Of a DNA stretch of 38,403 bases, positions 20,828 through 33,659 are shown piece after piece (position 1 is the first letter of the stretch; each line of letters opens with the position of its first letter). The translations under genes were made by a program, and so were the position numbers. This DNA is from a virus. Under the pieces are notes generated by a model. That model did no database searches. It had not been told where the DNA came from and saw only the letters and a program-made list of their open reading frames with translations. The stretch lies in the UHGV virus genome UHGV-0824332. One strand, given 5' to 3'.

Positions 20828-21529
20828 TTATTTGCCATAGAGCACTTCGGCCGCACTACGCTGGCCTTCATTACCACCGGTGACCATGCCATCTTCAGAC
20901 ATCGCCTTTCCGATTTTCACGAACGTTTTGACCAGATCAGGGTGATTACCCAGTCCGGTGGTGTTCAGATATTCTTTGAGTTCAGGTGTCCCGAACTGGT
21001 CAAGCGCACGCTGTGCGGCGCTAAGGTTAGAAATCAACTTGTCGCCACCGATTTCTTTGTCAGCTTTTACATCCGCAGCCCACTGCTCGGTTGTTTTCTG
21101 CCAGGCTTCTGCCTGGCGCTGCTGAACACCTGCCAGAATCTTCGGATAAGCATCAACCAGCTTTTGCGCTTGCTCGTTGGTCAGGTTAAGTTCTCGCGCC
21201 ACCGGCTCGAATTCCTTCAACGCTTCTGTATCCAGCTCTACGCCTTCGGCAGCCTGAAACTCGTACTTCTCAGGCGCCCCCTCTGGTTTATCGCCGTCCT
21301 TTTTTTCATCCTGCTTATCGTTTTCAGGCTTTTTGTCATCAGCAGGTTTATCGCCATCAGCAACAGGTTGTGGCTTATCACCTTCCAGTTGTGATGGATC
21401 ACCAACTGGAGCAGGGTTATCACCTGCAGGCGCTGACGGTTCTGACGCAGCCGGAGCTGCTCCGCCATCAACTGGTTGCTCATTGCAAAGACGGCGATAC
21501 AGCAAACGCTCAAATAAATTCATGATCAC
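20828..21529 (-). CDS. Scaffolding protein
   Basis: 233 aa, acidic Pro/Ala/Asp-rich N-terminal half and helical C-terminus. Confidence 0.7.
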   Translation of the reverse strand: MIMNLFERLLYRRLCNEQPVDGGAAPAASEPSAPAGDNPAPVGDPSQLEGDKPQPVADGDKPADDKKPENDKQDEKKDGDKPEGAPEKYEFQAAEGVELDTEALKEFEPVARELNLTNEQAQKLVDAYPKILAGVQQRQAEAWQKTTEQWAADVKADKEIGGDKLISNLSAAQRALDQFGTPELKEYLNTTGLGNHPDLVKTFVKIGKAMSEDGMVTGGNEGQRSAAEVLYGK

Positions 21530-21822
21530 TCCTGTTCACTGGCCTCTTTGGCCATCTTCAAATACTGTTCAGGGCAATGCGCCATAACGCGCTGAAACAG
21601 TTCCAGCGCCAGATTGCGTTGCCCCTCATTAAATGCCATTGCCATAGCATCCATCGGAGAGATAGCGGAAAACACCCGGCCTTTCTCCAGCACCGACCAG
21701 ACAACGCGACGCCCCTGTTCACTGCTCATGACAAAGCGAATGTCATCAATTTCACGCTGTGCCATGTCACGTTGCTTACGGGCGTTTTCTTCTTTCAGTT
21801 GATCGTCTTCGTAATCTGTCAT
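21526..21822 (-). CDS. Hypothetical protein between portal and scaffold
   Basis: 98 aa, start/stop overlaps with neighbours. Confidence 0.5.
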   Translation of the reverse strand: MTDYEDDQLKEENARKQRDMAQREIDDIRFVMSSEQGRRVVWSVLEKGRVFSAISPMDAMAMAFNEGQRNLALELFQRVMAHCPEQYLKMAKEASEQE

Positions 21823-23719: not shown

Positions 23720-23809
23720 ATCAATGACTCCGTACGCAATTAAATTATTACCAATTTAACCACATATGATTTATTTATCGTAGATAATTGACATTTAACG
23801 CACGAGTTA

Positions 23810-23824
23810 TTACCTTTCAGGTAG
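23810..23824. promoter_or_regulatory. Operator-like site C, TTACC-TTTCA-GGTAG, with -35-like TTGACA at 23788..23793
   Basis: Family palindrome (one half-site mismatch) in divergent intergenic region between late genes and tRNA moron. Confidence 0.4.
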
Positions 23825-23952
23825 GCAAAGAGTTCATTCCGGTTATTAACCTGACTGGCTTGTCGTTAAATTGAACAGGTGGAGTGAGCTTTTATTTTGA
23901 GCAGTACGGCGTATGGCACATGCGCCGATAGCGGTCTGGATACGTTTAAGGG

Positions 23953-24146: not shown

Positions 24147-24223
24147 GTGGCATTAGCTCAGTTGGACAGAGCAACCGCCTTCTAAGCGGTTGGTTGCAGG
24201 TTCGAATCCTGCATGCCACGCCA
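24147..24223 (+). tRNA. tRNA-Arg, anticodon UCU
   Basis: Acceptor stem GTGGCAT/ATGCCAC, D-arm GCTC..GAGC, anticodon loop CTTCTAA, T-arm GCAGG-TTCGAAT-CCTGC, encoded CCA. Confidence 0.85.
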
Positions 24224-24266
24224 GAATCACGCCTAAGGACCGTGATGCCAGAAGTTCCAGGTGCTT

Positions 24267-24309
24267 GGCGGTGACAGTTTCCCTTGAAGGACTATCACCG
24301 CCCTTTTTA
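24267..24309 (+). terminator. Rho-independent terminator after tRNA
   Basis: 8-bp stem GGCGGTGA/TCACCGCC then CTTTTT. Confidence 0.55.
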
Positions 24310-24386
24310 CAGCAGGACGCCATTGCGATGACTTCATGCTGTAAACCCGTACAGCCACGGAAGGCATAACTCATTGCTTCCAGTTC

Positions 24387-24410
24387 GCCCGGTTCGACGG
24401 GCATTTTTTT
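24387..24410 (+). terminator. Hairpin plus U-tract immediately upstream of the 24422 gene
   Basis: GCCCG-GTTCGA-CGGGC then ATTTTTTT, followed by RBS AAGGTGAG and ATG. Confidence 0.55.
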
Positions 24411-24421
24411 AAGGTGAGATT

Positions 24422-24778
24422 ATGAACGACCAGCAAATCGAAAAAGAAATCGTTGAGAAAGGCAAAACCGCTCCGCGAGTTACGCCTCAATATATCGAAA
24501 GCATCATTCTTGAAGAGCATTTCTTTACTGCTTATGACGGCATTCGTGCTGCCAATATGGGCGTTGGCGATACGTGGACAGCGCATAAATCTACAGACCT
24601 CCTTACTTTCTGCGTACTGGTGCTGAAGAATGGCTTCACCGTCACCGGAGAGAGCGCATGTGCAAGCCCGGAAAACTTTGATGCAGAAATTGGTCGGAAG
24701 ATTGCCAGGCAGAATGCTGTAAACAAAATCTGGATGCTTGAAGGTTACTTGCTGAAGCAGAAGTTAAGCGAGCAATAA
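24422..24778 (+). CDS. Conserved small phage protein (possibly N4 Gp49 / Sf6 gp66 family), function unknown
   Basis: 118 aa, strong RBS; family assignment from memory only. Confidence 0.5.
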   Translation: MNDQQIEKEIVEKGKTAPRVTPQYIESIILEEHFFTAYDGIRAANMGVGDTWTAHKSTDLLTFCVLVLKNGFTVTGESACASPENFDAEIGRKIARQNAVNKIWMLEGYLLKQKLSEQ

Positions 24779-24782
24779 CACC

Positions 24783-24794
24783 GTGACATGTCAC
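24783..24794. other. Perfect 12-bp palindrome GTGACATGTCAC (copy 1)
   Basis: Identical palindrome recurs at 27048..27059; both lie just beyond stop codons flanking the terminase module. Confidence 0.45.
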
Positions 24795-24798
24795 AAAC

Positions 24799-24825
24799 AG
24801 CCAGCCTATGAGCTGGCTTTGTTTT
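24799..24825 (+). terminator. Hairpin plus T-run between gp49-like gene and terminase large subunit stop
   Basis: AGCCAGC-CTATG-GCTGGCT then TTGTTTT. Confidence 0.45.
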
Positions 24826-24868
24826 ATCCTCACCAGAGGATATCAACGACATTATCCCCACCAGCGGA

Positions 24869-26344
24869 TTAAGCATAGGGATCGTAATCTGTAATGGCCT
24901 TGCCTTGCTGGTTCTGCTGACCTGGAATTCGCAGACGCTTCGACACAGGGAAAGCAAACGTCAGCAATAGCGCATCGCCTTTACCCGGCGAACGCCCAAG
25001 CCGCTCCTTGATATCTTCCTTCGGTTCGATAACGATTTTACCGTCCACTCGAACTTTGTACTCTGCCGCCGACAGGTCGTCCGCTGTTTCCTGGTCATCA
25101 AGCATCCCGCCCAGCCTCAGCCATGTCTTGCATGAGTTGAACATCTCCCCACGCTTGTTGAGCATCTGCGGGTCAGTAGACGCGCCACCGAACGGAACAA
25201 GTTGCCATGTGCGCCCCCAACCGTCACCGATTGACTTCAGACCGGTACCGTAACCAAAGTCGATGAACACTGCGTCAGCCTGATACAGGTCTTCAAAATC
25301 AGCGATACGCTTCGCCATAATCAGATCGTCGGTAGTCTTGTTGCCAGTCCACAGCACCTTACTGTGTAGCCCCTGCCGCAGGTATATCACCGCGTCATCA
25401 ACGCCTGAATATGCCGGGTCAACACCGATTATCACCGGAGCATGTGCAACCTGCGCAGCGGTTACCACCCGTTTCATTGCCTCGTCAGTAAGACCGGTAG
25501 GGATAAACTGCAATTCAGATGCATCAGGGAATATGCCGCGCACACGGATTTTAACGAAGTCGCTGTCTTCCCCGTAGTCATCAACCCATTTCTGCAACTG
25601 CTGTTTGTTAGTGCCTTCCACCGTCCGGCTGTCAATCTGCGCACACTTCCAGCGGTGTTTGTACTTGCGGAAACATTCACGGAAACGCCCGGTGTTACGC
25701 GTCGGGTTCCCGAACGCCACCCAGATGATTTCGGTGTCTTCGTCCGTCAGCGCACCCTCTGCTACCTCCCACACCAGATCGGCAATGTTCGACGCTTCAT
25801 CGAATACCACGATGATGCGTTTGCGCTCGTTGTGTAGTCCGGCGAATGCCTCAGTGTTGTGCTCAGACCAGGGTATTGCGTCAGCCCGCCATCGCTTGTC
25901 GTGCCCTGGGTCATTGCTGTACATCGCGGTAGCGGTACAGGTAAACCAGTCTTTCGTGATAGCAAGGTTCGACCACTTGATAATTTCCGGCCAGGTCTTC
26001 GTTCGTAGCTGGTTGTCGGTGTTGGCGGTCACCACGACCTTACAATCCTCGCAAGTGGACATGCCCCAGTTGATCAGCATTGAGATGAATGCGGATTTAC
26101 CAATACCGTGACCCGAAGCACGTGCCAGCATAAGCGGCTGATAGCGCGTCTCTGGATTCTGCAGGTGATCACGTATCTCTCGGAACGCATCAGCCTGCCA
26201 CTGACGTGGGCCGGTAGCATGTGCCAGTTCAGTCCCCTCTTCCCCCCACGGGAACGCATAGAGGGCATAGCCAAGCGGATCGTGAGTGAACCCTGCAATA
26301 TCCTCGATCAACTGCTCTTCAGGAGATAACGCTGTATCTGTCAC
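24869..26344 (-). CDS. Terminase large subunit
   Basis: 491 aa with ATPase-like and nuclease-like regions; stop overlaps small-subunit gene. Confidence 0.9.
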   Translation of the reverse strand: MTDTALSPEEQLIEDIAGFTHDPLGYALYAFPWGEEGTELAHATGPRQWQADAFREIRDHLQNPETRYQPLMLARASGHGIGKSAFISMLINWGMSTCEDCKVVVTANTDNQLRTKTWPEIIKWSNLAITKDWFTCTATAMYSNDPGHDKRWRADAIPWSEHNTEAFAGLHNERKRIIVVFDEASNIADLVWEVAEGALTDEDTEIIWVAFGNPTRNTGRFRECFRKYKHRWKCAQIDSRTVEGTNKQQLQKWVDDYGEDSDFVKIRVRGIFPDASELQFIPTGLTDEAMKRVVTAAQVAHAPVIIGVDPAYSGVDDAVIYLRQGLHSKVLWTGNKTTDDLIMAKRIADFEDLYQADAVFIDFGYGTGLKSIGDGWGRTWQLVPFGGASTDPQMLNKRGEMFNSCKTWLRLGGMLDDQETADDLSAAEYKVRVDGKIVIEPKEDIKERLGRSPGKGDALLLTFAFPVSKRLRIPGQQNQQGKAITDYDPYA

Positions 26345-26937
26345 TGATTACCATCCTGACGTTCTTTGAGTCGCTTCCTGGCTGCTGCTATGCGATCAGC
26401 AATTGTCACATTCACATTAACATCCAGACGTTCTTTGAACGCGTTGACATCAACATGCTTACCAATCAGCTCAAGGTTCTTCACCTTGTCAGGCCATTTA
26501 ATTTTTTTGAGGATTGTCTCTATCGAATCCTCGTTCATGTTCATGATGGTCGATGACAGATCAAAGCCACTAAGCGTAGTGCGCCAGATTTTCGGCCACT
26601 CACGGATTGGTTTAAGGCTCCCATCGTCGTTGAGGATGTCGATCACGTCCATCTGGTCGATCTCCACCAGGCGCATGAGAACGTAATCAGCACTGACGCG
26701 CATTCGTTTGTTGCGCTCCTCCATCAACTCGGCAATCCGTTTTTGAATGCGTTCATCGCGCATCATGACACTGGCTTTAACTGCCGCTGTATTTGGGGAG
26801 AATCCTGCGTTAATCGCTGCCTGAGTCTGGTTTTCAGGCGTTTTGATGTATGACTGGCAATAAGCCTCCTGCATTGCTGTTAGTGGCTTAAATTGCGTTG
26901 ATTTGCGTTTATAGGTTTTAGGTTCAGCAGGCATCAT
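26341..26937 (-). CDS. Terminase small subunit
   Basis: Probable ATG at 26937 (MMPAEPKTYKRK...) preceded by GGTGG; helix-turn-helix-like N-terminus; directly upstream of large subunit. Confidence 0.7.
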   Translation of the reverse strand: MMPAEPKTYKRKSTQFKPLTAMQEAYCQSYIKTPENQTQAAINAGFSPNTAAVKASVMMRDERIQKRIAELMEERNKRMRVSADYVLMRLVEIDQMDVIDILNDDGSLKPIREWPKIWRTTLSGFDLSSTIMNMNEDSIETILKKIKWPDKVKNLELIGKHVDVNAFKERLDVNVNVTIADRIAAARKRLKERQDGNQ

Positions 26938-26954
26938 AACCACCGTGGTAATAG

Positions 26955-26969
26955 TTACCGTTGTGGTAA
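26955..26969. promoter_or_regulatory. Operator site M, TTACC-GTTGT-GGTAA, with overlapping extra half-sites, 18 bp upstream of terminase start
   Basis: Perfect family palindrome; adjacent GGTAATAGTTACC and GGTAATAGTACC half-site arrangements. Confidence 0.45.
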
Positions 26970-26979
26970 TAGTACCATG

Positions 26980-27006
26980 CAAAATAAAGCCGCCATAGTT
27001 GGCGGC
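26980..27006 (-). terminator. Rho-independent terminator just upstream of the packaging/late genes
   Basis: GCCGCC-ATAGTT-GGCGGC followed on the minus strand by TTTATTTTG. Confidence 0.55.
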
Positions 27007-27047
27007 AGTATTCAAAACCCATCAAATTCATCATGCATAATCTACTC

Positions 27048-27059
27048 GTGACATGTCAC
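27048..27059. other. Perfect 12-bp palindrome GTGACATGTCAC (copy 2)
   Basis: Overlaps the stop codon of the 27056..27397 gene. Confidence 0.45.
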
Positions 27060-27397
27060 ACTATTAATTTCGTTTCATGCCAGCCTTTAGTCACCCAGCA
27101 TTGCGAGTCACCATTACACGGGCATGAATTAACTGGAACTCTCTCGCCGCACTTACCGCAACGTTTTCTGCTGATCGATTTTATACGCCCGCGCACCCGG
27201 GCATCATCCTGGCGGATCAGCAGCGCGATGTACTCGGCCATTTCATAGGGATCTCGACCAGGGCGCCGGGCGGCGCAGTTCCGCTCCAGCATTTCAATTT
27301 CCTGAGCATCAAGCACAATCTCCAGCTTACGTACACCGGATTCAGCTTGTCTGGCTCTCTGAGCGGCTTTGCGCTCTGCTGCTGATTTAGCCATCAA
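27056..27397 (-). CDS. Putative DNA-binding protein with C-terminal zinc ribbon (possible late-gene regulator)
   Basis: 113 aa; basic N-terminus, C-terminal CGKCGERVPVNSCPCNGDSQC; last gene before the terminator and terminase. Confidence 0.45.
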   Translation of the reverse strand: MMAKSAAERKAAQRARQAESGVRKLEIVLDAQEIEMLERNCAARRPGRDPYEMAEYIALLIRQDDARVRGRIKSISRKRCGKCGERVPVNSCPCNGDSQCWVTKGWHETKLIV

Positions 27398-29496: not shown

Positions 29497-30105
29497 TCAT
29501 GCCGATCTATTTTTCATCAGTGATTCATAAAACTTTTGCCACTTATGCCGACCGAAATTAGCCTTCGAGTTACAGCTCGAACAAAGGCAAATAAGGTTCT
29601 CCTGACGACAGTCTTGCTTGTCGTAATTGATGTGATGAGTTGTTAGCCTTTTGTCTGTTCCATCACAACCTGGGTTCTGACAAGTAAAACCATCTCGCTC
29701 AATAACCCTCTTGCTCGTTTCTCGGAAATCCCACGGATACGGCAATCTCGATAATCCACCAGACCAGTTTGGATTTCCTTCCCCCTTCATCAGAGAAGAA
29801 CGCATTATGTTGGAACACTGTTTCGAGCAGCATTTATGACGCTTCTCATGACTCAAGAAAACGGAGAACGAAGATCCGCATACGCAGCATATTTTTAATA
29901 CTCGCTTTAGTTCCCGATTTACCGTCTTGCCTCGCTGTGAAATTCCTACACACTGAAGTGAGCAGAACCTTGAAGATGAGTTGGCTCGCTTAACCTGATA
30001 TTGCCTGCCACATACGGAGCAAACCTTTTCGATTTTCCCACCCTTCCAATTCGGGTTTTTATCACCGGATACAATCAATCCCGCAGCATTGGGCTTCTCG
30101 CTCAT
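29497..30105 (-). CDS. HNH endonuclease
   Basis: Repeated NPNW(K/S)GG motifs with Cys pairs, C-terminal HHINYDKQD...NLICLCSSCNSKAN HNH core. Confidence 0.8.
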   Translation of the reverse strand: MSEKPNAAGLIVSGDKNPNWKGGKIEKVCSVCGRQYQVKRANSSSRFCSLQCVGISQRGKTVNRELKRVLKICCVCGSSFSVFLSHEKRHKCCSKQCSNIMRSSLMKGEGNPNWSGGLSRLPYPWDFRETSKRVIERDGFTCQNPGCDGTDKRLTTHHINYDKQDCRQENLICLCSSCNSKANFGRHKWQKFYESLMKNRSA

Positions 30106-30455: not shown

Positions 30456-30458
30456 GAT

Positions 30459-30473
30459 TTACCCCTCAGGTAA
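30459..30473. promoter_or_regulatory. Operator site D, TTACC-CCTCA-GGTAA, 4 bp upstream of the DUF1064 start codon
   Basis: Perfect family palindrome overlapping the RBS region. Confidence 0.5.
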
Positions 30474-30520
30474 TTAAAAACCACATAAGACACGAAATCA
30501 ATAGAGTTTAGAATATTTTA

Positions 30521-30535
30521 TTACCCGACAGGTAA
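30521..30535. promoter_or_regulatory. Operator site E, TTACC-CGACA-GGTAA
   Basis: Perfect family palindrome, 62 bp from site D, between P-like stop and DUF1064 start. Confidence 0.5.
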
Positions 30536-30572
30536 TTATCAAGACGTAAAAAAATGCGCTATCGCGCTGGTA

Positions 30573-32422: not shown

Positions 32423-32466
32423 TTTGTGCTGACACAAAAAAAAGATCAACCAGATTTGGTTTTTTA

Positions 32467-32481
32467 TTACCTTTGAGGTAC
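32467..32481. promoter_or_regulatory. Operator-like site F, TTACC-TTTGA-GGTAC
   Basis: Family palindrome with one half-site mismatch. Confidence 0.4.
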
Positions 32482-32495
32482 GAATAGATATGAAA

Positions 32496-32803: not shown

Positions 32804-32866
32804 TCACCCATAAGGTAACAAAAATCAAGAATAGTTACCTATGAGGTGCATTTACCTGTTGGGTAA
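32804..32866. promoter_or_regulatory. Immunity operator region (OR-like) with three sites G, H, I and divergent promoters
   Basis: TCACC-CATAA-GGTAA (32804-32818), TTACC-TATGA-GGTGC (32835-32849), TTACC-TGTTG-GGTAA (32852-32866) between Cro-like and repressor starts. Confidence 0.6.
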
Positions 32867-32921
32867 TATTGCTTTAAATTGAATCATCTACTGATTCATA
32901 TATGAGGCGATTTTCCAGAAA

Positions 32922-33552: not shown

Positions 33553-33563
33553 TGCCAGACAGA

Positions 33564-33640
33564 TTACCTTATGGGTAATTTTTTTAACTCATATCTATTG
33601 ACATCAAACCAGATACGCATAATTATTACCTCAACGGTAA
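33564..33640 (+). promoter_or_regulatory. PL-like early-left promoter with operators J and K
   Basis: TTACC-TTATG-GGTAA (33564-33578), -35 TTGACA (33598-33603), TTACC-TCAAC-GGTAA (33626-33640) over the -10/+1 region. Confidence 0.55.
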
Positions 33641-33659
33641 CAGACCGAGGTGACAAGTT

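What the first reader, a model, noticed from the sequence alone, without database searches (positions are those of the whole stretch)
24783..27059. Identical 12-bp perfect palindromes GTGACATGTCAC bracketing the terminase module
The two copies (24783-24794 and 27048-27059) each lie at or just beyond a stop codon, one on each side of the small and large terminase genes and the tRNA moron. Only about nine 12-bp perfect palindromes are expected in 38 kb, so an identical pair is unlikely by chance. They may be binding sites for a late regulator, the nearby HNH endonuclease, or packaging factors.
Basis: seen in the sequence. Interest (0 to 1): 0.45.

Follow-up and report, generated by a model that had tools for sequence, protein, structure and literature searches.

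The report
Operator sites of a phage regulator
The two identical 12-base palindromes are real, strongly conserved copies of a motif (GTGAC-NN-GTCAC) that travels with one small phage DNA-binding protein encoded right next to one of them, so they are most likely that protein's binding sites, marking the ends of gene blocks around the DNA-packaging genes.

Summary
GTGACATGTCAC occurs exactly twice (24783-24794, 27048-27059); no shuffle reproduced it.

The window is an epsilon15/phiV10-like temperate podophage. The same 12-mer sits at the homologous places in relatives from Escherichia, Salmonella, Enterobacter and Klebsiella, while its flanks diverge.

The real unit is GTGAC-N2-GTCAC. Every phage or prophage lineage examined that encodes a homologue of the 112-aa protein at 27059-27394 carries it, apart from two individual loci. 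These include N15, ZF40, P2-like, Mu-like, Vibrio, Aeromonas (a consistent half-site variant) and a 64% G+C lineage. Counts were 1-4 copies against 0.04 expected, and no other spacing is enriched. P2, Mu and lambda lack both protein and motif.

In many lineages the motif's TGA is that gene's own stop codon, as it is here. The protein models as a ribbon-helix-helix DNA binder with a C-terminal four-cysteine zinc module.

Best reading: the palindromes are its operators, lying between a stop codon and an intrinsic terminator at both ends of the terminase operon. What binding achieves (read-through control, roadblock or bridging) is inferred only.

The HNH endonuclease, the terminase and host MatP are poor candidates. 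I found no published description.

The parts
27048..27059 (.). Site 2 ('a'). A GTGAC-AT-GTCAC dyad whose TGA (27058-27056, minus strand) is the stop codon of the 112-aa gene. It is followed on the minus strand, 41 nt later, by an intrinsic terminator and then terS.
   Evidence: The same arrangement is seen in epsilon15, phiV10 (one mismatch), TL-2011b, Tyrion and Kp4865-1; in 77 of 80 IMG/VR relatives; and in 11 of 21 species-level genomes.
24783..24794 (.). Site 1 ('b'). An identical dyad, 4 nt after the stop of the plus-strand gp50-like gene and 4 nt before the stem of a terminator, in the gap where that gene converges on terL.
   Evidence: It is conserved at the same place in epsilon15, phiV10, Kp4865-1 and in 54 of 80 IMG/VR relatives. 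It is mutated in 7 prophages, and absent in 11 others that lack a detectable gp50 homologue, most of them carrying other cargo at this position.
27056..27394 (-). Gene for the 112-aa candidate binding protein (epsilon15 gp49 / phiV10 gp55 / N15 gp46 family, PHROG 536). It has an N-terminal basic helix, a ribbon-helix-helix core and a C-terminal CxxC-x8-C-x7-C zinc module. It is the last gene of the early-side operon.
26979..27006 (-). Intrinsic terminator (GCCGCCAACTATGGCGGC followed by TTTATTTT) between site 2 and terS.
24799..24828 (+). Intrinsic terminator (AGCCAGCCTATGAGCTGGCT followed by TTGTTTTAT), directly after site 1. It is flanked by A- and T-rich runs, so it could act in both directions between the gp50-like gene and terL.
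24422..24778 (+). gp50-like accessory gene (Pfam PF13876, N4 Gp49 / Sf6 gene 66 family), whose 3' end carries site 1.
24869..26344 (-). Large terminase subunit gene, inside the bracketed interval.
26341..27015 (-). Small terminase subunit ORF (Pfam Terminase_2), inside the bracketed interval. The start is probably the ATG near 26937, by comparison with epsilon15; the listed ORF starts at a TTG at 27015.

Best explanation
The two palindromes are copies of a 12-bp dyad operator, GTGAC-N2-GTCAC. The operator is most likely recognised by a dimer of the 112-aa ribbon-helix-helix plus zinc-module protein encoded at 27059-27394, with each half-site read by one subunit and the central two base pairs not read.

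One copy is welded to the 3' end of the protein's own gene, where its TGA is the stop codon. That is at the boundary between the early-side operon and the terminase operon. The other copy sits at the far end of the terminase operon, at the 3' end of the converging gp50-like gene. Each lies between a stop codon and an intrinsic terminator.

The most likely role (inferred, not shown) is that of a boundary element. The bound protein would set how much transcription passes the adjacent terminators: early transcription running into terS/terL at site 2, and gp50 transcription running antisense into terL, or late transcription leaving terL, at site 1. I cannot tell whether it strengthens the stop (roadblock or insulator) or relieves it (anti-termination).

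Shown: the motif, its conservation, its exclusive spacing, its linkage to this protein family, the fold of the protein, and an 8- to 15-fold enrichment next to terminators. Inferred: that the protein binds the motif, and every downstream consequence.
For: 1. The 12-mer is exactly conserved at homologous positions in Uetakeviruses of Escherichia, Salmonella, Enterobacter and Klebsiella. Meanwhile the flanks, the terminator stems and even the neighbouring genes differ.

2. Spacing is specific. In homologue-bearing sequence only the 2-bp spacer is enriched:
- 13 copies in 206 kb of reference genomes against 0.2 expected;
- 134 in 1.37 Mb of IMG/VR loci against 1.3;
- 34 in 408 kb from 21 species against 0.39.
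Other spacers (0, 1, 3-6) are at or near background: none in the reference and species sets, at most 4 elsewhere.

3. Exact or near-exact copies also occur in N15, ZF40, two Yersinia P2-like phages, a Mu-like prophage, Vibrio phages and a 64% G+C metagenomic lineage. An Aeromonas phage carries a consistent half-site variant, GTGACCGGACAC, three times. Their homologues are 28-69% identical to the window's protein.

4. P2, Mu and lambda have neither the protein nor an exact motif.

5. The motif's TGA is the homologue's own stop codon in Uetakeviruses, N15, Yersinia YenM_31.17 and the high-GC lineage, and in 11 of 21 species-level genomes. The last sense codon varies (GTG, ATG, TTG) but keeps the G that the motif needs. 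In one lineage a further copy overlaps the gene's GTG start, and in the Aeromonas phage a copy lies 13 nt before its ATG.

6. The protein models confidently (pLDDT 90), and its best structural matches are all ribbon-helix-helix DNA binders. R8, R13, R43 and four cysteines are invariant across 12 lineages.

7. The central dinucleotide varies freely (AT, TG, GC, AC, CG, GG, CC, GA) while the half-sites never covary. That is the pattern of a dimer site on duplex DNA, not of an RNA hairpin.

8. Of 167 window ORFs, only this one has homologues in all nine non-Uetakevirus motif-bearing genomes tested.

9. Of 76 distinct sites, 33% have a terminator-like hairpin within 45 nt, against 4% of random positions. 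Within 12 nt the figures are 18% against 1.2%.
Against: - No binding experiment exists, and I found no paper on the motif or the protein.
- The comparison genomes were chosen because they encode the protein. The association is therefore shown only in the direction protein to motif, plus three negative controls. A collection-wide scan for the motif was not possible, because the pattern tools need 14 specified bases.
- Two homologue-bearing loci showed no exact motif: L093 and L155.
- Site positions are heterogeneous across lineages: before terminators, 9-23 nt before start codons, inside genes, and as a tandem pair near a P2-type cos region. No single mechanism is evident.
- A site on the promoter-proximal side of a terminator is not the obvious place for a roadblock that helps termination.
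- Site 1 is dispensable in many prophages.
- The late operons appear to have their own operator-bearing promoters (ATTACC-N5-GGTAAT), so late expression may not need read-through at site 2.
Confidence: 0.6

Rival explanations
1. A host protein binds the palindromes. The obvious candidate is MatP, whose matS site (GTGAC-RNY-GTCAC) has the same half-sites. The phage would borrow a host nucleoid or regulatory factor.
Against: - The spacing is always 2 bp and essentially never 3. There is no 13-mer in the window even allowing one mismatch. In homologue-bearing sequence there were 0 to 1 copies with a 3-bp spacer per group, against 1 to 134 with a 2-bp spacer.
- The motif tracks a phage gene and overlaps its stop codon.
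- It is also present in a 62-64% G+C lineage, whose composition is unlike enteric or Vibrio genomes.
- P2, Mu and lambda share the E. coli host but lack the motif.
Confidence: 0.07
2. The palindromes are packaging signals: pac or cos accessory sites read by the terminase or a packaging cofactor. That would explain why they flank terS and terL.
For: - They bracket the terminase genes here and in 7 of 21 species-level relatives.
- In Vibrio phages a copy lies 11-19 nt before the terS start codon, in the HNH-terS gap. From general knowledge of HK97-like phages, that gap is where cos usually lies.
- In a high-GC lineage a copy closes terL.
- In P2-like prophages a tandem pair lies between a GC-rich cos-like stretch and the portal gene.
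Against: - The same motif serves phages with unrelated small terminases: Terminase_2, PHROG 57, Terminase_4 and P2 gpM types.
- It lies far from any packaging gene in N15, ZF40, the Aeromonas phage and Providencia prophages.
- Site 1 is lost or mutated in many prophages, though whether these are still viable was not checked.
- A third copy in epsilon15 and phiV10 is about 17 kb away, at the end of the structural operon.
Confidence: 0.1
3. The element works as RNA. A small GUGA/UCAC hairpin would lie directly 5' of a terminator stem or of a Shine-Dalgarno sequence. Bound by the protein, or occupied by a ribosome stalled at the weak UGA-C stop, it would control termination or translation of the next gene.
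For: - Many copies lie 0-4 nt before a terminator stem or 9-23 nt before a start codon.
- 37% of sites provide an in-frame UGA for an ORF of at least 60 codons. From general knowledge, UGA followed by C is a weak stop context.
- The asymmetric Aeromonas variant has the same orientation in all three intergenic copies.
Against: - The stem would be only 4 bp.
- The would-be loop (the central dinucleotide) is the variable part, and the stems are invariant without any compensatory change. That is the reverse of what an RNA hairpin operator shows.
- The protein's fold is that of duplex-DNA binders.
- Tandem pairs 23 and 33 bp apart look like cooperative DNA operators.
- In compact phage genomes any non-coding site must fall next to a stop, a start or a terminator.
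Confidence: 0.1
4. No dedicated binding function. The 12-mer would be a short linker kept by descent, or used as microhomology where modules are exchanged between phages. The two copies in this window would simply be inherited junction scars.
For: Mosaic junctions fall exactly at the edge of the motif. There are four unrelated sequences downstream of site 'a' and four different genes upstream of site 'c' in related phages. Site 'b' comes and goes with its cargo gene.
Against: - Descent cannot explain the same half-sites and spacing in phage groups that share only this one gene of those tested, at 28-40% protein identity.
- It cannot explain the preserved G in a variable last codon.
- It cannot explain zero counts at every other spacing.
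- A conserved operator would itself create the observed junction pattern.
Confidence: 0.08

Closest known systems
Ribbon-helix-helix repressors and their dyad operators (Arc and Mnt of P22, MetJ, CopG, antitoxins such as MazE, ParD and TacA)
   Different: There is an added conserved N-terminal basic helix and a C-terminal four-cysteine zinc module with no structural match. No Pfam or NCBIfam model reaches threshold. The sites lie at 3' ends of genes and next to terminators rather than over a recognisable promoter. There is no toxin partner.
MatP / matS of E. coli (Ter macrodomain organiser)
   Same: The half-sites GTGAC/GTCAC are identical. MatP also contains a ribbon-helix-helix domain and appears among the structural matches. 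Several dispersed copies per replicon is also a shared trait.
   Different: matS is a 13-mer with a 3-bp centre, whereas this motif always has 2 bp. Profile comparison finds no sequence relationship (probability 0.6%). MatP's four-helix bundle and coiled coil are absent. The sites are on phage genomes at gene ends.
Lambda-type Q antiterminators with their DNA binding element at the late promoter
   Same: Gene position is similar: last gene before a terminator that precedes late genes. The DNA site is immediately next to the gene, and a zinc-binding motif is present.
   Different: There is no similarity to any Q family. N15 and the L088 phage carry a genuine Q as well as this protein. No conserved promoter or pause element follows the site in different lineages. 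Many copies are not near terminators.
DksA/TraR-type zinc-finger proteins that bind RNA polymerase
   Same: A profile of the family gives weak sequence hits (E about 0.03) to TraR and YbiI over the long helix plus CxxC region.

Membership tests
Ribbon-helix-helix (Arc/MetJ/CopG) DNA-binding regulators | Beta-alpha-alpha fold that pairs into a dimer with a two-stranded ribbon | tested here: met
Ribbon-helix-helix (Arc/MetJ/CopG) DNA-binding regulators | Recognisable by curated sequence models of the family | tested here: inconclusive
   Pfam RHH_5 and RHH_1 are hit by only 2 and 1 of 56 members, at E 0.013-0.07. NCBIfam gives only weak hits to the YbfE model, E 0.0025-0.07 and far below the cut-off.
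Ribbon-helix-helix (Arc/MetJ/CopG) DNA-binding regulators | Sequence-specific binding to a symmetric or repeated duplex DNA operator | not testable with these tools
   Only indirect support: a dyad motif with invariant half-sites that co-occurs with the gene.
MatP/matS | 13-bp site GTGAC-RNY-GTCAC | tested here: not met
   No 13-mer in the window even with one mismatch. The motif is always 12 bp.
MatP/matS | Protein homologous to MatP (four-helix bundle, RHH, coiled coil) | tested here: not met
Q-type late antiterminators | Membership of a Q protein family | tested here: not met
   No Pfam hit. A separate Phage_antiter_Q gene coexists with the homologue in L088 and in N15.
Q-type late antiterminators | Binding element embedded in a late promoter that is followed by a terminator | tested here: inconclusive
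   There is a weak promoter-like match using GTGACA as the -35 element and a terminator 41 nt downstream. The -10-like element is not conserved among lineages.
Terminase recognition sites (pac/cos) | Specific to one terminase type and located at the packaging start | tested here: not met
   The same motif occurs with four unrelated small-terminase types and far from packaging genes in N15, ZF40 and the Aeromonas phage. Virion ends were not testable.
Target of the neighbouring HNH endonuclease | Co-occurrence of enzyme and site | tested here: not met
   tblastn with the window's HNH protein (29497-30105) finds nothing in 14 motif-bearing genomes.
DksA/TraR zinc-finger proteins | C4 zinc finger of the zf-dskA_traR type after a long helix | tested here: not met
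   Only E~0.03 profile hits. No Pfam hit. No structural match for the isolated domain.

The most novel reading that the evidence does not exclude
The protein could be a phage counterpart of MatP. Dimers bound at GTGAC-N2-GTCAC would pair with one another through the zinc module, tying the ends of transcription units together. This would isolate the terminase operon and the structural operon as separate loops. By bringing the same short sites of co-resident phages together, it might also focus module exchange at exactly these points. That would explain why mosaic junctions coincide with the motif, and why tandem pairs and 2-4 dispersed copies per genome are the rule.
Probability: 0.1. Interest if true: 0.8.

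Novelty: new variant of a known kind. Interest (0 to 1): 0.55.

Why it matters
Databases label this protein 'hypothetical' or, without evidence, 'transcriptional regulator'. The curated epsilon15 and N15 records annotate many binding sites but none at these positions.

If the pairing holds, it gives this small family a defined 12-bp recognition site. The family runs to 159 clusters at 50% identity and is spread over podo-, sipho- and myovirus-type temperate phages of Enterobacterales, Vibrio, Aeromonas and at least one high-GC lineage of unidentified host.

It would also mark the ends of transcription units in epsilon15/phiV10-like phages. phiV10 derivatives are engineered as E. coli O157 reporter phages, so insertions or deletions near the terminase genes should respect these sites. 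The arrangement in which a regulator's operator supplies its own stop codon is unusual and easy to test.

Tried and rejected
1. Genome ends. The phiV10 record starts inside the palindrome, which at first suggested a cos or pac end. The record is simply opened after the stop codon of gp55, so this says nothing about virion ends.

3. MatP homology. Profile comparison was negative.

4. Promoter reading. Treating GTGACA as a -35 element gives a weak match here, but the -10-like element is not conserved in other lineages.

5. Epsilon15 'repressor' sites. These proved to be a different motif, ATTACC-N5-GGTAAT.

6. Literature. Searches for the 12-mers, for phiV10 with cos, and for ribbon-helix-helix/zinc-ribbon phage regulators found nothing relevant. 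The epsilon15 genome paper is not held.

7. Distant relatives in the species-level genome collection. The single-protein query reached only Enterobacterales and one Advenella MAG.

8. P0210 in viral contigs gave no confirmed locus.

9. Host of the high-GC lineage. A tblastn search with its terminase could not identify the host.

Full report
**Observation**

GTGACATGTCAC occurs at 24783-24794 and 27048-27059 and nowhere else in the window. None of 100 dinucleotide-preserving shuffles contained even one copy. The window has 8 perfect 12-bp palindromes, close to the 9.6 seen on average in shuffles. Only 1% of 300 shuffles contained any palindrome twice.

Three details need correcting.
- Site 2 overlaps the TGA stop (27058-27056, minus strand) of a 112-aa gene (27059-27394), not of a terminase gene.
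- Site 1 lies 4 nt after the stop of a plus-strand gene of the Sf6-gp66/N4-gp49 family (24422-24778) that converges on terL.
- The tRNA-Arg gene (24147-24223) is outside the bracket.

**Context**

The window is an epsilon15/phiV10-like temperate podophage (Uetakevirus). It is 95-97% identical to E. coli O157 typing phages and phiV10, and about 82% identical to Salmonella phage epsilon15 over this region. Late genes run on the minus strand.

Reading along the minus strand, the order is:
1. the 112-aa gene;
2. site 2;
3. 41 nt of spacer;
4. an intrinsic terminator (stem 27006-26989, then TTTATTTT);
5. two copies of a different motif (ATTACC-N5-GGTAAT type, 26970-26936);
6. terS and terL;
7. a terminator hairpin (24818-24799);
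8. site 1;
9. the stop of the converging gp50-like gene.

Seen from the gene that ends there, both sites have the same layout: stop codon, palindrome, terminator.

**Conservation in close relatives**

Epsilon15 has the identical 12-mer at three places:
- over the stop of gp49, before the terminator that precedes terS;
- between terL and gp50;
- over the stop of gp18, directly before the bidirectional terminator that ends the structural operon.

phiV10, TL-2011b, Enterobacter phage Tyrion and Klebsiella phage Kp4865-1 have it at the corresponding places. In these comparisons the flanks, the terminator stems and even the neighbouring genes differ, while the 12-mer does not. The window lacks the third copy.

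Among 80 IMG/VR relatives, site 2 is exact in 77 and site 1 in 54. Where site 1 is missing, either it carries one substitution (7 prophages) or no gp50 homologue is detectable, in most cases because other cargo occupies that position (11 prophages). Sequences downstream of site 2 fall into four unrelated classes that diverge right at the edge of the motif.

The phiV10 GenBank record happens to be opened inside the palindrome. That is only because it was cut after the gp55 stop codon.

**The motif is GTGAC-N2-GTCAC and it follows one protein**

The 112-aa protein (PHROG 536, no Pfam family) has 159 cluster representatives at 50% identity. I looked at lineages carrying increasingly distant homologues.

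| Lineage | Identity to window protein | What was found |
|---|---|---|
| Pectobacterium phage ZF40 | 69% | GTGACATGTCAC three times, one copy 2 nt after the homologue's stop |
| N15 | 35% | GTGACTGGTCAC three times, one over the stop of gene 46 and directly before the ribosome-binding site of gene 47 |
| Yersinia P2-like YenM_31.17 | 43% | GTGACGCGTCAC over the stop of its homologue |
| A second P2-like group | 40% | Tandem pair GTGACATGGCAC plus GTGACATGTCAC, 33 bp apart, between a GC-rich cos-like stretch and the portal gene; a motif copy in 35 of 37 loci, the full pair in most |
| Vibrio phages | about 32% | Three or four copies, one 11-19 nt before the terS start codon |
| Mu-like prophage | 35% | One copy 23 nt before the gemA start codon, plus a second inside the transposase gene |
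| Metagenomic lineage, 62-64% G+C | 28-30% | Copies at the homologue's stop, at the terL stop just before a terminator, and (one mismatch) over the homologue's GTG start |
| Aeromonas phage | about 30-34% | Consistent variant GTGACCGGACAC three times, each 13-15 nt before a start codon, including the homologue's own |

Counting every spacer from 0 to 6 bp shows enrichment only at 2 bp, in every group. In 21 species-level genomes of Enterobacterales, plus one Advenella MAG, there are 34 exact copies against 0.39 expected, and none at any other spacing. Twenty of the 21 loci have at least one copy. In 11 of them the motif's TGA is the homologue's stop codon. The last sense codon changes (GTG, ATG, TTG) but always keeps the G that the motif needs.

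P2, Mu and lambda have no homologue and no exact motif. Only two homologue-bearing loci showed no exact motif: L093 and L155.

**The protein**

Twelve lineage representatives share invariant R8 and R13 in the basic helix, R43 and Y50 in the core, and four cysteines spaced CxxC-x8-C-x7-C.

A weak sequence resemblance of the C-terminal half to TraR/YbiI (E about 0.03) did not survive testing. There is no Pfam hit, and the domain modelled alone has no structural match. Profile comparison with MatP found nothing.

**What this supports**

The motif is most simply the duplex-DNA operator of this protein. The supporting points are:
- the invariant half-sites with a freely varying centre;
- the fixed spacing;
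- the tandem pairs at 23 and 33 bp;
- the fold of the protein;
- the physical welding of a copy to the gene's own end.

An RNA hairpin would show the opposite pattern: a conserved loop and covarying stems.

The other candidates do badly.
- The window's HNH endonuclease has no homologue in any of 14 motif-bearing genomes.
- The small terminase is shared only among Uetakeviruses, while the motif serves phages with four unrelated terminase types and often lies far from packaging genes.
- MatP needs a 3-bp centre, which is never used here.
- The motif persists in a lineage of 62-64% G+C, whose composition is unlike enteric genomes.

Among 167 window ORFs, only the 112-aa gene is shared by all nine non-Uetakevirus genomes examined. 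Those genomes were chosen through that protein. The association is therefore demonstrated from protein to motif, plus three negative controls, but not yet from motif to protein.

**What binding does is not settled**

Across 76 distinct sites, 33% have a terminator-like hairpin within 45 nt (4% for random positions). Within 12 nt the figures are 18% against 1.2%. In 37% of sites the TGA closes an ORF of at least 60 codons. The control positions were random rather than intergenic, and some sites are homologous to one another, so these ratios overstate the independent evidence.

In the window and its relatives, all sites lie on the gene side of a terminator, at the ends of the early-side operon, the terminase/gp50 junction and the structural operon. 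I therefore favour a boundary role, in which the protein sets how much transcription passes these terminators.

I cannot say in which direction it acts. The geometry is not the obvious one for a roadblock, and the late operons seem to have their own operator-bearing promoters. Elsewhere the sites sit just before start codons (N15 gene 47, gemA, terS), which may only reflect that compact phage genomes offer no other non-coding space.

A packaging role keeps some plausibility, because copies recur next to terS, terL or cos in five lineages. It fails in several others. A bridging, MatP-like role is possible and untested.

**Comparison with what is known, and novelty**

The nearest known kind is a ribbon-helix-helix regulator with a dyad operator. 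The differences are the extra basic helix, the unmatched zinc module, the placement of sites at 3' ends of genes, and the use of the operator's TGA as the regulator's stop codon.

The site resembles matS in its half-sites but not in its spacing. The protein is not detectably related to MatP beyond the shared fold. It is not a Q protein: N15 and a related phage carry a genuine Q as well.

No paper in the searchable library contains any of the 12-mers. The richly annotated epsilon15 and N15 records have no feature at these positions. I rate this a new variant of a known kind, of moderate interest. The claim that matters, that this protein binds this site, is cheap to test.

Noticed in passing
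window 26936-26952, 26954-26970, 23809-23825, 5233-5249, 30458-30536, 32466-32482, 32851-32867, 33563-33641 and others: A second, unrelated dyad, ATTACC-N5-GGTAAT, occurs 14 times (up to 2 mismatches) against 1.2 expected. It sits at the 5' ends of operons: two copies directly before terS, one before the structural operon, one before the tailspike gene, and a cluster around the repressor gene. The epsilon15 record annotates the same motif as repressor sites. Together with GTGACATGTCAC at 3' ends, it looks like start and stop punctuation of the transcription units.
   Followed up: partly
window 5288-5303: A perfect LexA-box-like sequence, CTGTATATTTATACAG, lies in the divergent gap between ORF 5311-5583 (+) and the tailspike gene (2814-5129, -). 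In Klebsiella phage Kp4865-1 (L007, about 12740-12760) another LexA-like box overlaps a good promoter that starts right after site 'a'.
   Followed up: no
window 24147-24223 (+) and 24153-24404 (-): The tRNA-Arg(TCT) gene overlaps, on the opposite strand, an 83-aa ORF that has a strong PHROG 4647 match and is annotated in phiV10 (p04). It is unclear whether both are expressed. phiV10's annotation has no tRNA here.
   Followed up: no
window 21759-21770: A one-mismatch copy, GTGCCATGTCAC (reverse complement GTGACATGGCAC), lies inside the gp5-like ORF 21526-21822. It is also present in phiV10 and TL-2011b but not in epsilon15. It is the same variant as the weaker member of the tandem pair in P2-like prophages.
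   Followed up: partly
L088 3804, 9481, 12236: An N15-like phage with a 43%-identical homologue also carries a different 14-bp palindrome, GGGACCATGGTCCC, three times in intergenic gaps: once before a ribosome-binding site, once as a possible small terminator, and once next to a hairpin. The binder is unknown.
   Followed up: partly
L095 10847-10891; L138 11675-11719; L092 14423-14467: In Yersinia-type P2-like prophages the homologue occupies the place of P2 orf91, just after gene A. A tandem pair of sites lies about 200 bp beyond a GC-rich cos-like stretch, before the portal gene or a moron gene. Variable cargo (an SMC-like ATPase, DUF87 ATPases) is inserted between the gene and the sites.
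   Followed up: partly
L005 32282; L004 19493; L006 20377; L144 12475 and 12498; L132 28550: The 'third' site recurs next to antirepressor or Bro-N genes. It lies after ant in TL-2011b, beside Bro-N or anti-repressor genes in phiV10 and Tyrion, as a tandem pair after a Bro-N gene in L144, and upstream of the N15 antirepressor operon.
   Followed up: no
L135 19491: Vibrio phage K233 has a single 13-mer, GTGACACCGTCAC, that fits the matS consensus, in addition to its three 12-mers. It may be chance.
   Followed up: no
It therefore looks like a recent insertion in this phage's early region.
   Followed up: partly
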